This document shows, one piece after another, positions 40,935-47,592 of a stretch of DNA of 54,892 nt. Numbering within the stretch: position 1 is the first letter of the stretch; each line of letters starts with the position of its first letter. The stretch lies in the IMG/VR virus record IMGVR_UViG_2568526312_000015; one strand, given 5' to 3'. A program made the position numbers and the translations under genes. The stretch comes from a virus. Its lineage: Duplodnaviria > Heunggongvirae > Uroviricota > Caudoviricetes. Below the pieces are notes generated by a model. The model searched no databases and was not told the DNA's origin. It saw only the letters and a list, made by a program, of their open reading frames with translations.

Positions 40935-40980
40935 ATTCGTAATGCGAAGGTCGTAGGTTCGACTCCTATTATCGGCACCA
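40935..40980. repeat. attR of the prophage: exact 46-bp copy of the thrW 3' end (also marks the proximal end of the P4-like island)
   Basis: Identical to 1399..1444; lacks the 5' half of the tRNA. Confidence 0.85.
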
Positions 40981-41142
40981 TCTCAACTTCCTCAAACGTC
41001 CGTATTAGTCCATAAAATCTCTGATTTATAACATTTTTTATTCTTTTAAGTCCATAGTAGTCCGTAACCATCCAGTAGAATCCGGTACTGAATGTGTATA
41101 GGATTGTGTATATGTTCCTGTTCGGTCTGGATTCCTATACAC

Positions 41143-42324
41143 ATGCCTTTAAACGATATGCAGATTCGCCGCGCTAAGCCTGAAGCTAAAGCCTATACAT
41201 TTGGAGATGGGCTAGGGTTGTCATTACTTATAGAACCTAATGGAAGCAAGAGTTGGCGGTTCCGCTATCGCTATGCCGGCAAACCCAAAATGATCTCGCT
41301 TGGTGTTTACCCAACGATCACCCTTGCCGATGCTCGTTCCCGTCGTGATGAAGCTCGAAAACTTGTGGCAGAAGGAAAGAACCCTAGTGAGGTTCGAAAA
41401 GAGCAAAAGCTAGCTATGCAAACAGAGTCAGAGAACGCCTTCGAAAAGATAGCCAGAGAGTGGCATCAACTTAAATCTGCTAAATGGTCGGCGGGATATG
41501 CATCAGACATCATGGAAGCGTTTAAGAACGACATTTTTCCTTATGTCGGAACAAGGCCTGTGGGAGAGATTAAACCGCTAGAGCTGCTGAACGTTCTGCG
41601 TAAAATTGAGAAACGTGGTGCGTTGGAGAAAATGCGCAAAGTGCGGCAGCGTTGCTCCGAAGTGTTTCGCTACGCAATTGCAACGGGTAGGGCGGAGTAC
41701 AATCCTGCGGCTGATCTCTCCAGCGCTCTCGAAGTACACCAATCCAATCATTTCCCATTCCTAAAAGCTGATGAGATACCTGATTTTCTACGTGCCTTAG
41801 AGGGTTACTCCGGGAGTAAGCTTGTCCAGATAGCCACGAAATTACTGATGATTACGGGTGTGAGAACCATCGAATTACGCGCGGCATTATGGCAAGAATT
41901 TGATCTGGATAACGCTATTTGGGAAATTCCTGCTGAAAGGATGAAAATGCGTAGGCCACATCTTGTGCCCTTATCATCTCAAGCGGTAGATTTACTCAAT
42001 GAACTCAAGATCATGACAGGGAACTATCGTTATGTTTTTCCAGGGCGGAACGATCCGAATAGGCCAATGAGCGAAGCGAGTATAAATCAAGCCATTAAGC
42101 GTATTGGGTATGGAGGAAAAGTCACTGGACATGGTTTTCGTCATACCCTTTCTACAATCCTGCATGAGCAAGGTTTTGAGAGTGCTTGGATTGAAATCCA
42201 GTTGGCTCATGTAGATAAAAATTCTATTAGGGGGACTTATAACCATGCTCAATATTTTAGTGGAAGGAAGTCTATGATGGACTGGTACAGTAATTTGATA
42301 TTTGAAAGACTAAAAAGGAGTTAA
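41143..42324 (+). CDS. P4-type tyrosine integrase
   Basis: N-terminal LNDMQIRRAKPEAKAYTFGDGLGLSLLIEPNGSKSWRFRYRYAGK pattern typical of P4-family integrases; C-terminal catalytic region with HGFRHT. Confidence 0.88.
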   Translation: MPLNDMQIRRAKPEAKAYTFGDGLGLSLLIEPNGSKSWRFRYRYAGKPKMISLGVYPTITLADARSRRDEARKLVAEGKNPSEVRKEQKLAMQTESENAFEKIAREWHQLKSAKWSAGYASDIMEAFKNDIFPYVGTRPVGEIKPLELLNVLRKIEKRGALEKMRKVRQRCSEVFRYAIATGRAEYNPAADLSSALEVHQSNHFPFLKADEIPDFLRALEGYSGSKLVQIATKLLMITGVRTIELRAALWQEFDLDNAIWEIPAERMKMRRPHLVPLSSQAVDLLNELKIMTGNYRYVFPGRNDPNRPMSEASINQAIKRIGYGGKVTGHGFRHTLSTILHEQGFESAWIEIQLAHVDKNSIRGTYNHAQYFSGRKSMMDWYSNLIFERLKRS

Positions 42325-42327
42325 TTT

Positions 42328-42744
42328 GTGTCTCAACCACTTTCGGAAATATTGACATGGGATGATGAACAATGGGAGGTATTTGTCCATGATTGGCTTA
42401 TTGTCTGTAAATCAGATGATTACCCGTGGAGCGAACGTTTGGGAGGAGCTGGAGATAAAGGTAGAGACGTTGTTGGATATAAATCGGATCCTAACGTAGA
42501 AGGTTATTCTTGGGATAATTATCAATGCAAACTGTACAAAAAAAGTTTAGGGTTCTCTGATGTTGTAGTTGAGTTTGGAAAACTTATCTATTTTACTCTG
42601 AATGGTGATTATCCCATCCCTCAGAAGTACTTTTTTGTGGCACCCTATGATTTATCTACTACATTTTCTAATTTATTGAAAAATAAAAACGAGCTTAAAA
42701 AAGCAGTCCTTGATTCATGGGATTCAGCAATTTCAAAAAAATAA
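42328..42744 (+). CDS. Mrr-type PD-(D/E)xK nuclease-domain protein (N-terminal part of the candidate effector)
   Basis: GTG start 4 nt after the int stop with an AAAGGAG RBS; motifs GGAGDKGRDVVGY and YQCKLYKK fit the Mrr-catalytic-type GDxGxD...QxK pattern; ends in an A7 run. Confidence 0.6.
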   Translation: MSQPLSEILTWDDEQWEVFVHDWLIVCKSDDYPWSERLGGAGDKGRDVVGYKSDPNVEGYSWDNYQCKLYKKSLGFSDVVVEFGKLIYFTLNGDYPIPQKYFFVAPYDLSTTFSNLLKNKNELKKAVLDSWDSAISKK

Positions 42745-43334
42745 CTAAAAAGATTGATATTCCATTAGATGATGAAATAAAAAAATATATTGAGGATTTT
42801 GATTTTAGTATTTTTTACTCTCTACCCTTATCATTGATTTTAAATGATATTGCAAATACACACCTTTATTTTAAGTACTTTAACGAGCTGTATGTCGTGA
42901 GAATCCCTCCAAATGAAATTCCAACATACAATTCAAAAAAAGAGTCTGTATATGTTAATGCACTGCTTCAAGCCTATTCAGAGCATGGAAATAAAACTTA
43001 TAGTTCTTTCTTAGAGCTTGATGATCCATACAGACGACACTTTAATAATAGTAGAAATGATTTTTATTTTGCATCTTCGCTTGAGGTTTTTGTCCGCGAA
43101 GTATTTAAAGATGATGTATTCAAAGCATTGAAATGTTACATTTCATCTTCAATTGAACCCGTCTTTTATGAAGACCATAATTATGCATTTATTAGGTGTA
43201 ATGCAGTCTTGAAGCAGGCTGTTCTGACACCAATTGCACATTCAGTACTATCAAAAATATGTGAAGCAAATGATAAAAAAGGAATATGCCATCATTTGGT
43301 TAATGATGGTGAAGTAATTTGGACGGTGAGATAA
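42717..43334 (+). CDS. Hypothetical protein; probable C-terminal continuation of the nuclease-domain protein (reached by a -1 shift in the A7 run)
   Basis: Overlaps the upstream ORF by 28 nt in the -1 frame; A_AAA_AAA heptamer at 42735..42741; AT-rich. Confidence 0.5.
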   Translation: MGFSNFKKITKKIDIPLDDEIKKYIEDFDFSIFYSLPLSLILNDIANTHLYFKYFNELYVVRIPPNEIPTYNSKKESVYVNALLQAYSEHGNKTYSSFLELDDPYRRHFNNSRNDFYFASSLEVFVREVFKDDVFKALKCYISSSIEPVFYEDHNYAFIRCNAVLKQAVLTPIAHSVLSKICEANDKKGICHHLVNDGEVIWTVR

Positions 43335-43792
43335 TGGTTAGAATTTATAATTCAAGTTTAGAAGTGGCATGTCGAATGGCGAAAGTGCTCGTCGCTATTT
43401 ATCCTTCTTCATTAAGCCTTGAACGGCTTATTTGTTTTGATTTTATTTTAGTAAATCTTAAGGATTTTTTACCTGAAGAGATTAGTCTTCATCCTCCAAT
43501 ACCCCGTAGAGATGCTCAGTTAGCCCTAAAACGAGAGATTGTTTTAGAATCATTGGCTTTGTTGCAAGGCTATGAACTAGCCTCAAAAATTTATACACAT
43601 CGTGGTTTTGTATATAAAGCTTCTGAAAAAACATATGCATTTACAAATTCTCTACATAATGAATATGTTGCGCAGATGGAGCATAATATAAATTTGGTGG
43701 TTAAGTTATATAGTGATATTCCTGATGAGCAGTTGCAATCAATTATAAAAAATAAAATTGGCAAATATGATATGGAATTTAATTATGAATGA
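43334..43792 (+). CDS. Hypothetical small protein (middle component of the candidate system)
   Basis: 152-aa ORF; ATG overlaps the upstream stop (TAATG) and its own stop overlaps the next start (ATGAATGA). Confidence 0.5.
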   Translation: MVRIYNSSLEVACRMAKVLVAIYPSSLSLERLICFDFILVNLKDFLPEEISLHPPIPRRDAQLALKREIVLESLALLQGYELASKIYTHRGFVYKASEKTYAFTNSLHNEYVAQMEHNINLVVKLYSDIPDEQLQSIIKNKIGKYDMEFNYE

Positions 43793-44417
43793 CAATTTTT
43801 TTACGTTCAGAAAAATAAAGGTAACCGGATTCAATAAATTAGATGCTATAATTGAATTTGGTTCTAAATTGACTATTTTATATGGTGGTTCTGACTCTGG
43901 AAAAACATACATATATTATTTGATTCGATATTTATTAGGGAGTGAAAAACTAAAAAATAAAGATATCGATCATGCTCAAGGTTATGATTTAGCCTATCTG
44001 GAATTTAATTTTCAAGGTAGGGTAATGACAATTGAGAGGTCTCTTCAGGATAGCGCCCATTACAGATTATATGATTCGAGCATTGAAAATGTTAGTGAAG
44101 CTAATCTGTTGATGGTTTTTTCCAAAAGTGCTTCGTCTAAAAAGAGTTTTTCATCATACTTTTATGGTAGGTTGAATTTCAAAGAGGCTAAAGTAAGAAC
44201 AAACTTAAGTAATACTCTTCATAAATTTAATCTTAATAATGTTTTTGAATTTTTTTGTATTGATGAATTAAGAGTGTTAACTGAGAAGTCGTTAATTCTT
44301 TCTGATATTCCTAGCGAGGAGACAAAAAGAAAGTCTGAATTTAAATTCCTTTTAACTCAGAGAGATGATACTAACTCCTTAGCAGAAAAACCAAATAAAA
44401 AAGCAAGATATTTTTAA
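43785..44417 (+). CDS. SMC/ABC-type ATPase, N-terminal head (Walker A)
   Basis: FTFRKIKVTGFNKLDAIIEFGSKLTILYGGSDSGKTYIYYL: SMC/RecF-like N-terminus with P-loop GGSDSGKT; ends at an in-frame TAA. Confidence 0.6.
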   Translation: MNDNFFTFRKIKVTGFNKLDAIIEFGSKLTILYGGSDSGKTYIYYLIRYLLGSEKLKNKDIDHAQGYDLAYLEFNFQGRVMTIERSLQDSAHYRLYDSSIENVSEANLLMVFSKSASSKKSFSSYFYGRLNFKEAKVRTNLSNTLHKFNLNNVFEFFCIDELRVLTEKSLILSDIPSEETKRKSEFKFLLTQRDDTNSLAEKPNKKARYF

Positions 44418-45038
44418 AAAAATCAAATTGCAAATATTTATGAGGAATTGAAAGCGCAATTAATTTATCCTGAATATGATCAAGTCATTGTTTCAAGAGA
44501 ACTTGAGAAAGTAGAGCAAGATATTGAATCATCGAAAGATATATTGAAAGGTATTGTTGATGCACTTGATGATAAGAAGCAATTATTAAAAGAGTTAAGT
44601 GATGAATTATATTCAATCAGTGACAGGGAAAAATACTTATCATTACTCATTGAAAGATTTAGTCTTCTTAAAGACCAATACTTTATAGATCTACAAAGAA
44701 TAGATGTTGTATCACAGGCGAATTTCTATTTAAATAATTTTGCAGATATTTATTGTGAGTTCTGTAATACACCGCAAAAAAAAGAAAATGAAATATCATA
44801 TGATGATTGTTTTTTGTCGTGTAATGCAGAAAAATTGAAAATCAAAAGCCAGCTGAAAGGATTAATTGAATCAATCGGATCTAATGTTCGCGAACATGAA
44901 TTAATTATGTTAAGAAAAAATGATGTTAATGAAATTTATCAATCAGAAAAAAGTGATTTTAAGACGTTAGAAGATAAAAATATAAAACAATACATTCATC
45001 TCTTGAATCACTTTATGAATATAAAGACAATCTTTTAA
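44418..45038 (+). pseudogene. Coiled-coil middle segment of the same SMC/ABC-type ATPase (separated only by an in-frame TAA; no ATG start)
   Basis: Same frame as 43785..44417; reading frame open immediately after the TAA at 44415..44417; helical heptad-rich sequence. Confidence 0.5.
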
Positions 45039-45604
45039 TGGATCACACAAAACATAGCATTCTATCTTCATTACAAGATAAAGAAGATGATGTTGACGAA
45101 CTTAAATACTCCGCCGAGGACTTTGACTCCTTAACAGTAGCTGATTTGTATGATATAGAAATAGCGATGCAAGACTTTTTGAATGATATAAATTTTGAAA
45201 ATTCTAAAGATAACAAAGTGCGATTTGACGAAGATACATATGACTTTAATATCAATGGGAAACGCCGAGGAATGTTTGGTAAAGGTACCCGTGCAGTAAT
45301 GCATGCTATATTTACCATTTGCTTTGCGGAATTTTTATCAAGAAAAGGGAATCCATTCATTGGATTTGTTGTGCTTGATAGTCCATTAGTGACGCACTTT
45401 GATAAAGATAGAGGGGGTTCTCTATCGGATGTTAATAGCGTCAGTCTCAGTGATTCATTTTATCACGCATTAATCAAAAGGGACTATAATTTCCAGATTG
45501 TAATTCTTGAGAATAAAGGTCCGACGTTCCAAATAAAAATTAATGATGCAAATAAAATCCATAACTTAAATAAGAATGGAAGCTCTGGTTTTTATCCTGT
45601 TTAA
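45038..45604 (+). CDS. SMC/ABC-type ATPase, C-terminal head (signature-like and Walker B)
   Basis: GKGTRAVMHAIFTI (signature-motif-like) then FIGFVVLDSPL (Walker B) about 25 aa later; TAATG overlap with the preceding segment. Confidence 0.55.
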   Translation: MDHTKHSILSSLQDKEDDVDELKYSAEDFDSLTVADLYDIEIAMQDFLNDINFENSKDNKVRFDEDTYDFNINGKRRGMFGKGTRAVMHAIFTICFAEFLSRKGNPFIGFVVLDSPLVTHFDKDRGGSLSDVNSVSLSDSFYHALIKRDYNFQIVILENKGPTFQIKINDANKIHNLNKNGSSGFYPV

Positions 45605-46013
45605 TACATTAAAAATATAACTGCTAATTGGGGTGCTCGAAATTATATTTCGTTTCGAGCGCTCAGTTCATTTCTAAATAATTTGCAAAATTATTTTGGG
45701 TACTTTCGCCTCTACACTTCCTTCGGGTGGTTCCACAATAATGGATCTCACCGGCGTTTGATATTTTATAATCTAACCCCTTAGCGCGCGCAGCCCCCCA
45801 CGCCTGCTCGCTTCGCTTAACAGACTGGTTTTCATGCATTCCGCAAATCGTCTCAGAAGCCACCACACAAGGGCTTTCGCGTCAAAAATGGTGCATGAGA
45901 ATCATGCGTTTTCATGCGCTATAGACATGCACTCATGCGCTCTCAGGCCAGCCAGGGAAAAGGCGTAAAAAATCCCAGTACTGGACCGGGATTACGTGGG
46001 CTTTTTTTGCTAA

Positions 46014-46286
46014 TCAGACAGGAATTTGCTGACGGCTTGACAGCTTTGACGCGGAGCCATAGCGATTGAGAGTTTGCTGTTGTTTTTCCGGCATTTGTGC
46101 TTTCTCTGATTCCTGTTCATTGCGCCGGGGCTTCATGATTATCGTATCCACACTTTCCAGTGCGGTAAATGTGTAGGAACATTCAAGATTCTGGCACTGA
46201 TACCATGAGCGTTTAACCGATGGTGCTTCATAGGCGGAGGTTCTGGCGTGTGCCGTCGTACCGCATTCGGGACATTTAAGTGCCAT
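46014..46286 (-). CDS. Ogr/Delta-family zinc-finger late transcription activator
   Basis: CPECGTTAHARTS...YQCQNLECSYTF pattern matching the P2 Ogr / P4 Delta C4 zinc finger. Confidence 0.8.
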   Translation of the reverse strand: MALKCPECGTTAHARTSAYEAPSVKRSWYQCQNLECSYTFTALESVDTIIMKPRRNEQESEKAQMPEKQQQTLNRYGSASKLSSRQQIPV

Positions 46287-46291
46287 TAATA

Positions 46292-46843
46292 TTACTCCTG
46301 CATGCCGTTAATGTAATCCAGACGTTGCTGAAAGCGCAGTTGTTGTGCAGGGGTGTAAGAGCTCTGGCAATCACGAACCATCATGGGGTCAGGCATCACA
46401 CCGGATTCATCCAGAATCATACGATAATCCCCGGCAATTTCAGGCGGTGTTATTGCCAGCTGGCGAACCAGAGCATTGCGTAATATACGGGACGCAACGT
46501 CAACCCCTCCGCGCCCCTTCAGGAACGGAGCCAGTGCAGATGTCAGGGCTGCTCCATTCGCCTGCATAAAATTGCTGAGAGCGTCTTCTGTGCAGGCCTC
46601 CATCAGTTGATGCTGCGAGTAAATGCATTCGCGCGCAGCACAGTTAATTTGCCATTTCAGCACATCCAGATGTTCCCGCTGTAATTCGAGCTGTCGAGCA
46701 TAATCTGCTGGTTTTTCCATGGCAGTGAGGAGTGATTCTATCTGTTGTTCAACGGCTTTTCGGCTCTCACTATGTCCAGCCCACAGAATACGGGCATTTC
46801 TAAAACTGATAAGCGCTTGGTCTGGAGTGACTCGGGCCATCAT
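46292..46843 (-). CDS. P4-like late-operon protein (possible Psu/Delta-region analogue)
   Basis: 183-aa helical ORF co-oriented and contiguous with the Ogr-like gene; assignment by position only. Confidence 0.4.
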   Translation of the reverse strand: MMARVTPDQALISFRNARILWAGHSESRKAVEQQIESLLTAMEKPADYARQLELQREHLDVLKWQINCAARECIYSQHQLMEACTEDALSNFMQANGAALTSALAPFLKGRGGVDVASRILRNALVRQLAITPPEIAGDYRMILDESGVMPDPMMVRDCQSSYTPAQQLRFQQRLDYINGMQE

Positions 46844-47592
46844 ACTGCTTTCTCCTTCTCAGCACGTTCCTGACGAACCTTCATTTTATGCATAGCTGCT
46901 GGAGAGAGTTTATTACTGAAATCCAGACGGGCCGCATAATCCGGGGCAACTCCCGCCAGTTTAAACACGGGGTCCTGTTCGGGCATCGCATCGTTAGTCA
47001 GAGCCGGTCTGGTGATATGTTTATGAATAAAATCTTTCAGCAGTGTGTCCGGGTCATTAACTGAATGCACCACACCGACAACTGCGCTGGCTTCCCTGCC
47101 CATTGTTGATTTGAGCAGGCTTAGTGTCTGGATTAGTGCTTTTCCATGCGACTGCATAAAATCTTCCCAGATTTGTTTTGCGCGAATACCCACAAGGGTG
47201 TCGTGCGCGTGGATATACTTTCCGGCTAATTCCGCAGCCTCCTGCGGCAAAAGTGCATTTTCGCTTTCCTGAGCCGCCAGCAGCTCATCAAAATCCTCAA
47301 GCGTTTCTCGTCCCAGCGCAATTTCCGTGCGCAGTTTTTTCATTTCCTTTGAGACTACGCCCTGACTTTCACGAAATAGCGTGCGCCACTCCTCATTCAG
47401 GGCGTTCGTCGTGGCTTCCATTTCAGCGCGGCGCTGGCGGATTGTCGCAATATTATCCGCTGCCGCTTTTTGCTGACGACGTGCTTCAAGCCATGCAGAT
47501 TTGGTGGCATTCACTTTCTCAAGCGCCTGTTGCGTCGAAACAGGGATAGAAATTTCAACGATCGGGTTATTGTTCTGTTCTGGGATTGTCAT
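46840..47592 (-). CDS. P4-like late-operon protein (possible Sid/Psu-type capsid-associated analogue)
   Basis: 250-aa coiled-coil-rich ORF at the head of the leftward operon; assignment by position only. Confidence 0.4.
   Translation of the reverse strand: MTIPEQNNNPIVEISIPVSTQQALEKVNATKSAWLEARRQQKAAADNIATIRQRRAEMEATTNALNEEWRTLFRESQGVVSKEMKKLRTEIALGRETLEDFDELLAAQESENALLPQEAAELAGKYIHAHDTLVGIRAKQIWEDFMQSHGKALIQTLSLLKSTMGREASAVVGVVHSVNDPDTLLKDFIHKHITRPALTNDAMPEQDPVFKLAGVAPDYAARLDFSNKLSPAAMHKMKVRQERAEKEKAV

What the first reader, a model, noticed from the sequence alone, without database searches (positions are those of the whole stretch)
42328..45604. Candidate anti-phage operon in the P4-like hotspot: Mrr-type nuclease, small protein and SMC/ABC-type ATPase
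A very AT-rich, tightly coupled operon sits between the P4-type integrase and the Ogr/Delta-like late operon, the position where P4-like satellites are known to carry variable defence cargo. Its first gene starts 4 nt after the integrase stop, with its RBS inside the integrase 3' end. It encodes a PD-(D/E)xK nuclease with Mrr-type motifs (GGAGDKGRD...YQCK) and a ~200-aa C-terminal extension. Next comes a ~150-aa protein of unknown fold. Last is an SMC/RecF-like ABC ATPase with Walker A (GGSDSGKT), a long coiled-coil and a C-terminal head (GKGTRAV then VVLDSPL). The order effector / small protein / SMC-like ATPase matches Lamassu-family systems (LmuA-LmuC-LmuB, DdmABC), but identity cannot be confirmed here; it may be a divergent or undescribed variant.
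Basis: partly seen in the sequence, partly recalled or inferred. Interest (0 to 1): 0.85.

Follow-up and report, generated by a model that had tools for sequence, protein, structure and literature searches.

The report
Decayed Lamassu defence operon in O157 satellite
This is a recognisable Lamassu anti-phage operon (nuclease, small adaptor, SMC-like sensor) carried by the P4-like prophage Sp2 of E. coli O157:H7, but three mutations have broken two of its three genes, so it is most likely a dead remnant of an already known system.

Summary
The window is E. coli O157:H7 (identical to Sakai and EDL933). Region 42328-45604 is the cargo of P4-like prophage Sp2, lying between its integrase and the ogr/delta-psu-sid genes. 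Conceptually repaired proteins match PADLOC LmuA (8e-89), LmuC (2.9e-36) and LmuB (4.7e-117) end to end, and Pfam ABC-3C CTD6 and MC2. This is a short type II Lamassu with a Mrr-like nuclease effector.

It is not undescribed. The same locus, taken from O55:H7 strain TB182A, was published as "Lamassu-var" (PMC11754643).

It is also not intact. Comparison with intact operons in Proteus and Pantoea shows three lesions:
- a 1-nt deletion in an A-run that splits LmuA exactly between the nuclease domain and the C-terminal domain;
- a TTA-to-TAA nonsense mutation at LmuB Leu211;
- a 1-nt deletion in an A-run at about LmuB residue 398.

309 of 5426 complete E. coli genomes carry the locus, all at 99% identity or more. 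None of the roughly 95 records listed or inspected has an intact copy. Some carry further indels, an IS1203 insertion or deletions.

Published work shows that all three Lamassu components are required for defence. The best reading is therefore a decaying pseudo-operon. The kind is already known and interest is low. The main value is a caution about the published "Lamassu-var".

The parts
40935..40981 (+). attL of Sp2: exact 47-nt copy of the 3' end of tRNA-Thr thrW (the gene itself is at 1369-1444)
41143..42324 (+). P4-type tyrosine integrase (393 aa), intact. Its 3' end holds the ribosome-binding site AAGGAG (42315-42320) of the first cargo gene.
   Evidence: Pfam Arm-DNA-bind_3, Phage_int_M and Phage_integrase; annotation; sequence
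42328..42744 (+). LmuA N-terminal fragment. Residues 1-138 follow the intact LmuA sequence (the lost base lies inside an A-run coding Lys-Lys, so no foreign residues are added) and then the frame hits a stop. It holds the complete Mrr-like PD-(D/E)xK nuclease domain, with GDKGRD at 42451-42468 and QCK at 42523-42531.
42735..42741 (+). Lesion 1: an A7 run with one base missing relative to the intact homologues. This shifts the LmuA frame in the linker between the nuclease domain and the C-terminal domain. It is shared by O157:H7 and O55:H7.
   Evidence: DNA alignment with the intact Proteus and Pantoea operons shows a single gap column here. Adding one A gives 335 aa, gapless against L005 LmuA at 86.6% identity. 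TB182A carries the same split.
42742..43334 (+). LmuA C-terminal fragment in the shifted frame (the listed ORF starts at ATG 42717). It holds the helical middle region and CTD6, the domain that in solved Lamassu complexes docks to LmuB and LmuC and drives effector oligomerisation.
43334..43792 (+). LmuC (152 aa), ABC-3C middle component 2, intact
   Evidence: Pfam MC2 6e-30; PADLOC LmuC PDLC03871 2.9e-36; 81.6-90.8% identity, gapless, to the Pantoea and Proteus LmuC
43785..44417 (+). LmuB fragment 1 (residues 1-210): N-terminal half of the ATPase head, with Walker A GGSDSGKT at 43884-43907, and the start of the coiled coil
   Evidence: PADLOC LmuB PDLC03863 8.4e-50, model positions 3-199; Pfam AAA_23
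44415..44417 (+). Lesion 2: in-frame TAA where all seven aligned homologues have Leu (residue 211). It is a TTA-to-TAA change specific to the O157:H7 branch; O55:H7 strains keep T at 44416.
44418..44980 (+). LmuB middle part (residues 212 to about 398): coiled coil with the CxxC zinc-hook motif CEFC at 44754-44765
   Evidence: PADLOC LmuB model positions 231-412; C324 and C327 invariant
44976..44980 (+). Lesion 3: an A5 run with one base missing (Proteus has A6). This shifts the LmuB frame at about residue 398. The ORF that continues to 45038 is out of frame from this point. It is shared by O157:H7 and O55:H7.
   Evidence: This is the second and only other gap column in the DNA alignment with the intact operons. 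Repair gives 606 aa, gapless against P0001 (87.8%) and P0002 (75.6%).
44978..45604 (+). LmuB C-terminal part in the shifted frame (the listed ORF starts at ATG 45038): end of the coiled coil and the C-terminal half of the head, with GKGTRAV at 45278-45298 and the variant Walker B VVLDSP at 45368-45385
   Evidence: PADLOC LmuB model positions 428-608, 5.1e-37; Pfam DUF3732, weak
45631..45664 (+). 13-bp stem-loop just after the LmuB stop; possible end of the operon, with a weak T tail
   Evidence: consensus scan only
46014..47592 (-). Context: the satellite late genes ogr/delta (46014-46286), psu (46292-46843) and a sid-like gene (46840-47592) that close the hotspot
   Evidence: Pfam Ogr_Delta 1e-16, Psu 4.8e-42 and 7.1e-10; annotation

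Best explanation
The region is the defence cargo of the P4-like satellite prophage Sp2 (CP-933I) of E. coli O157:H7. It is a short type II Lamassu (ABC-3C) operon of the Mrr-nuclease / CTD6 / MC2 sub-family.

In its intact form, as still found in Proteus mirabilis and Pantoea alhagi, it would work as solved Lamassu systems do. Two SMC/Rad50-like LmuB protomers plus LmuC hold one LmuA monomer by its C-terminal domain. When LmuB senses foreign DNA ends or replication intermediates, LmuA is released. It oligomerises through the C-terminal domain, and the assembled nuclease domains cut DNA and abort the infection. This mechanism is inferred from the Cap4-CTD7-MC3 sub-family, not shown for this one.

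In this window the operon is a pseudo-operon.
- One lost base in an A-run separates the LmuA nuclease domain from its C-terminal domain.
- LmuB is cut into three pieces by a Leu211 TAA nonsense codon and by a second one-base loss in an A-run.
- Only LmuC is intact.

The LmuA lesion and the second LmuB lesion predate the O55:H7/O157:H7 split. The nonsense codon arose on the O157 branch. The O55 branch gained its own extra frameshift. Individual strains add IS1203 insertions and deletions. The locus is therefore decaying neutrally and most likely no longer defends.
For: **Identity of the window**
- It is 100% identical to Sakai and EDL933, inside the annotated 'prophage Sp2, P4-like phage'.

**Family assignment**
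- Fragments hit PADLOC LmuA, LmuC and LmuB. Repaired proteins hit end to end at 8e-89, 2.9e-36 and 4.7e-117.
- Pfam gives CTD6 and MC2.
- An AF2 model of a 67%-identical LmuA has pLDDT 93.5. Its best PDB matches are solved LmuA chains, followed by Mrr-like nucleases.
- LmuB is 606 aa, with Walker A Gx4GKT, Walker B hhhhDS and one CxxC. This matches the published definition of short Lamassu (PMC12663957).

**Lesions**
- The DNA alignment with the intact operons L003 and L005 has only two gap columns, both in A-runs, plus TAA in place of TTA.
- The repaired LmuA and LmuB are gapless and have exactly the homologues' lengths.

**Fixation and further decay**
- 309 of 5426 E. coli genomes carry the locus, all at 99% identity or more, even in distant blastn mode. 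All of the roughly 95 listed rows show fragmented annotation.
- Lineage-specific lesions were mapped. An IS1203 insertion is, a 646-nt deletion, and larger deletions are hits H69 and H70.
- The Sakai curators already mark the ATPase as a pseudogene.
- O157 and O55 differ at 2.75 sites per kb in the cargo against 0.67 per kb in the flanks (Fisher p = 0.07).

**Requirement for all parts (literature)**
- An ATPase point mutation, an effector mutation or lmuC deletion each abolish defence in Lamassu family systems, including a Lamassu-Mrr (10.1101/2022.05.11.491447).
- Oligomerisation through the LmuA C-terminal domain is essential (10.1101/2025.03.14.643221).
Against: - One paper reports that this locus, cloned from O55:H7 TB182A, reduces plaque size of T2, T4, T6 and RB69 (PMC11754643). 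If that effect is real and due to these genes, some activity survives.
- The LmuA break falls exactly at the domain boundary, and LmuC is intact, so residual or altered function of the pieces is conceivable.
- No expression or protein data were examined here.
- Only about 95 of the 310 records were listed or inspected individually, so an intact revertant among the rest is not strictly excluded.
- The mechanism is extrapolated from the Cap4-CTD7-MC3 sub-family. No Mrr-CTD6-MC2 complex has been solved.
Confidence: 0.85

Rival explanations
1. A functional 'split' Lamassu variant (the published Lamassu-var). The separate nuclease, C-terminal-domain, LmuC and LmuB pieces would assemble non-covalently and still give weak anti-T-even defence.
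For: - PMC11754643 reports smaller plaques for T2, T4, T6 and RB69 with the cloned TB182A locus.
- The LmuA break lies exactly in the inter-domain linker: helix 120-135, then coil, in the AF2 model.
- LmuC is intact.
Against: - The phenotype was plaque size only, and only at the highest dilutions.
- By the coordinates given in the paper, the insert starts at the GTG of the first fragment, so it lacks the native ribosome-binding site and promoter. It also includes ogr/delta.
- No mutant controls are mentioned in the sections read, and the sections read do not mention the frameshifts.
- The pieces differ between O55 (extra frameshift at 44947) and O157 (TAA at 44415) and between strains. A selected split architecture would not vary like this.
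- The internal fragments have no evident ribosome-binding sites. The middle LmuB piece would have to start at a TTG.
- The intact relatives are single 335-aa and 606-aa proteins.
- An ATPase active-site mutation abolishes Lamassu defence, so an intact working LmuB is needed.
Confidence: 0.07
2. The frameshifts are bypassed during expression, by transcriptional slippage or ribosomal frameshifting on the A-runs, so that low levels of full-length LmuA and LmuB are made. This would be a phase-variable or dampened defence system.
For: Both frameshifts lie in homopolymeric A tracts, A7 at 42735-42741 and A5 at 44976-44980. Such tracts are slippage-prone in principle (general knowledge).
Against: - A5 is too short for appreciable slippage (general knowledge).
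- O157 additionally needs readthrough of a TAA codon.
- Three independent low-efficiency events would have to coincide.
- The homologues have interrupted runs at the LmuA site (CAATAAAA, AAAGAAAA), so no conserved slippery site exists.
- Strain variants only add further indels, and none restores a frame.
Confidence: 0.03
3. The disruptions are sequencing or assembly errors in homopolymers, and the operon is really intact.
For: Two of the three lesions are single-base homopolymer length changes, a typical error class. A few long-read assemblies show extra homopolymer indels.
Against: - The same three lesions occur in every O157:H7 record listed or aligned individually; all 310 matching records are at 99% identity or more. 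These include independently finished Sakai and EDL933.
- Two of the lesions are shared with O55:H7.
- The third lesion is a base substitution, not an indel.
Confidence: 0.01
4. The remnant has been kept for a new role. For example, the intact LmuC and the free LmuA C-terminal domain might act as decoys that interfere with incoming or co-resident Lamassu systems, or the free nuclease domain might have another use.
For: - LmuC has stayed intact in the copies whose annotation was inspected, except the L008 deletion variant.
- The locus has persisted since before the O55/O157 split.
Against: - Persistence is expected in a young clonal lineage without any selection.
- LmuC is the shortest target (459 nt), so its survival is not significant.
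- L008 fuses LmuC to LmuB through a deletion.
- No data point to such a function.
Confidence: 0.04

Closest known systems
'Lamassu-var' of Johnson et al., Domainator paper (NAR 2024, PMC11754643), cloned from E. coli O55:H7 TB182A, CP038295 4116517-4120474
   Same: It is the same locus. My L007 is that record and is 99.7% identical to the window over 42200-45700, with the same integrase and ogr/psu flanks. That paper counted it as the most frequent Psu-integrase hotspot cluster in E. coli (259 of 910), which agrees with the 309 genomes found here.
   Different: - The sections of the paper I read treat it as a new multi-CDS variant ('3 to 9 CDSs') and do not mention frameshifts.
- Here the extra CDSs are shown to be fragments of a canonical three-gene operon.
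- The window (O157) copy differs from the cloned O55 copy. It carries TAA at 44415-17 and lacks the O55-specific 1-nt deletion at 44947.
Lamassu-Mrr (short Lamassu with a Mrr effector; DefenseFinder subtype; tested example from E. coli O150:H5 SE15 in Millman et al. 2022, bioRxiv 10.1101/2022.05.11.491447)
   Same: It has the same architecture: LmuA with an N-terminal Mrr-type nuclease, LmuC, and a roughly 600-aa LmuB. In the tested system all three components were required and defence worked by abortive infection.
   Different: - The SE15 system is not a close relative at DNA level. Distant blastn against 5426 E. coli genomes found nothing outside the O157/O55 clone.
- The present copy is disrupted.
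- DefenseFinder itself could not be run here.
Solved Lamassu complexes of the Cap4-CTD7-MC3 sub-family: V. cholerae DdmABC (9nxx, 9ny1, 9ny5; also 9uxl, 9uxh, 9uxi) and Salmonella enterica LmuACB (9hqx)
   Same: - The three-gene order and the SMC/Rad50-like LmuB with a variant Walker B are shared.
- The mechanism proposed here is taken from these structures.
   Different: - The effector domain is Mrr-like rather than Cap4.
- The C-terminal-domain family is CTD6 rather than CTD7, and the LmuC family is MC2 rather than MC3.
- No sequence-level match to any PDB chain was found.
- Walker B is D-S rather than D-Q.
Intact orthologous operons in Proteus mirabilis (L003) and Pantoea alhagi (L004, and L005/L006 whose LmuB is identical)
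   Same: - LmuA, LmuC and LmuB are 92.5/90.8/87.8% identical (Proteus) and 86.6/81.6/75.6% identical (Pantoea) to the repaired window proteins, all gapless.
- The Pantoea copies sit in the same P4-like frame (int-Lamassu-ogr-psu-sid-alpA-primase), next to proBA as in the window; the thrW sequence itself matches only in L004.
   Different: - They have uninterrupted 335, 152 and 606-aa reading frames.
- The Proteus copy lies outside a P4-like satellite, with only a decayed integrase 3' part upstream.

Membership tests
Lamassu (type II / ABC-3C), short clade | SMC/Rad50-like LmuB of about 600 aa: split ABC head with Walker A Gx4GK[ST], coiled coil, and variant Walker B hhhhD[Q/S/T/E] | tested here: met
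   After repair the protein is 606 aa. PADLOC LmuB PDLC03863 scores 4.7e-117 over model positions 3-608 of 610. GGSDSGKT, VVLDS and CEFC lie on invariant columns. The definition comes from PMC12663957. As encoded in the window, the gene is broken in three.
Lamassu (type II / ABC-3C), short clade | Small middle component LmuC encoded between lmuA and lmuB | tested here: met
   It is 152 aa and intact. Pfam MC2 gives 6e-30 and PADLOC LmuC 2.9e-36. Its reading frame overlaps both neighbours.
Lamassu (type II / ABC-3C), short clade | LmuA made of an N-terminal effector domain plus an ABC-3C C-terminal docking and oligomerisation domain | tested here: met
   The repaired 335-aa protein scores 8e-89 against PADLOC LmuA PDLC03852, end to end. 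Pfam CTD6 gives 2.1e-29. Solved LmuA chains are the top fold matches. As encoded in the window, the two domains are on separate ORFs.
Lamassu (type II / ABC-3C), short clade | Confers phage or plasmid defence that depends on the LmuB ATPase, the LmuA active site and LmuC | not testable with these tools
   The only report is a small-plaque phenotype for the O55 allele, with no mutant controls mentioned in the sections read (PMC11754643). The lesions predict loss of function.
Lamassu-Mrr effector subtype | The N-terminal domain of LmuA belongs to the Mrr-type PD-(D/E)xK nucleases (Pfam Mrr_cat, D...QxK active site) | tested here: met
   - The window fragment alone reaches only E = 0.2 against Mrr_cat.
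- 5 of 39 full-length family members hit Mrr_cat, best E = 1.6e-6 (see also precomputed PF04471 on P0080, P0140 and P0157).
- D43, D47, Q66, C67 and K68 are invariant.
- That these neighbours are Mrr-like rests on my own knowledge.
Lamassu-Mrr effector subtype | Called as Lamassu-Mrr by the DefenseFinder models | not testable with these tools
   DefenseFinder HMMs are not available here. PADLOC LmuA models carry no subtype description.
P4-like satellite defence hotspot (between integrase and psu) | Variable cargo flanked by a P4-type integrase and the psu/delta/sid late genes, within an element that has alpA and an alpha-type primase and sits at a tRNA att site | tested here: met
   The Sakai annotation reads 'prophage Sp2, P4-like phage' and lists alpA-like, ash-like and primase genes. 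Caveats: the late genes are ordered sid-psu-delta, and PMC11754643 reports only about 31% Psu identity to P4, so this is a distant P4-like lineage.

The most novel reading that the evidence does not exclude
The fragmented operon may really retain the weak anti-T-even activity reported for 'Lamassu-var'. That would mean Lamassu can work with its nuclease domain and C-terminal domain on separate polypeptides and with LmuB in pieces, or that LmuC plus fragments have a defence or interference role of their own. It would be a naturally split SMC-based immune sensor.
Probability: 0.06. Interest if true: 0.6.

Novelty: already known. Interest (0 to 1): 0.2.

Why it matters
For biology at large, little: this is a known defence family in a known hotspot, and the copy is dead.

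It has three modest uses.
- **Published claim.** It shows that the most frequent 'Psu-integrase hotspot' cluster in E. coli, published as a new active 'Lamassu-var', is a frameshifted canonical Lamassu-Mrr confined to the O55:H7/O157:H7 clone. That claim needs re-testing against a repaired allele.
- **Counter-example.** It is a clear exception to the recent statement that defence pseudogenes are rare (under 1%) in P4 hotspots (PMC13586616).
- **Natural experiment.** The dated series of lesions can be read against the sequestration model: LmuA split and one LmuB frameshift before the O55/O157 split, then branch-specific hits, IS insertion and deletions. Loss of LmuB with an intact LmuA should be toxic, so the effector is expected to be disabled first.

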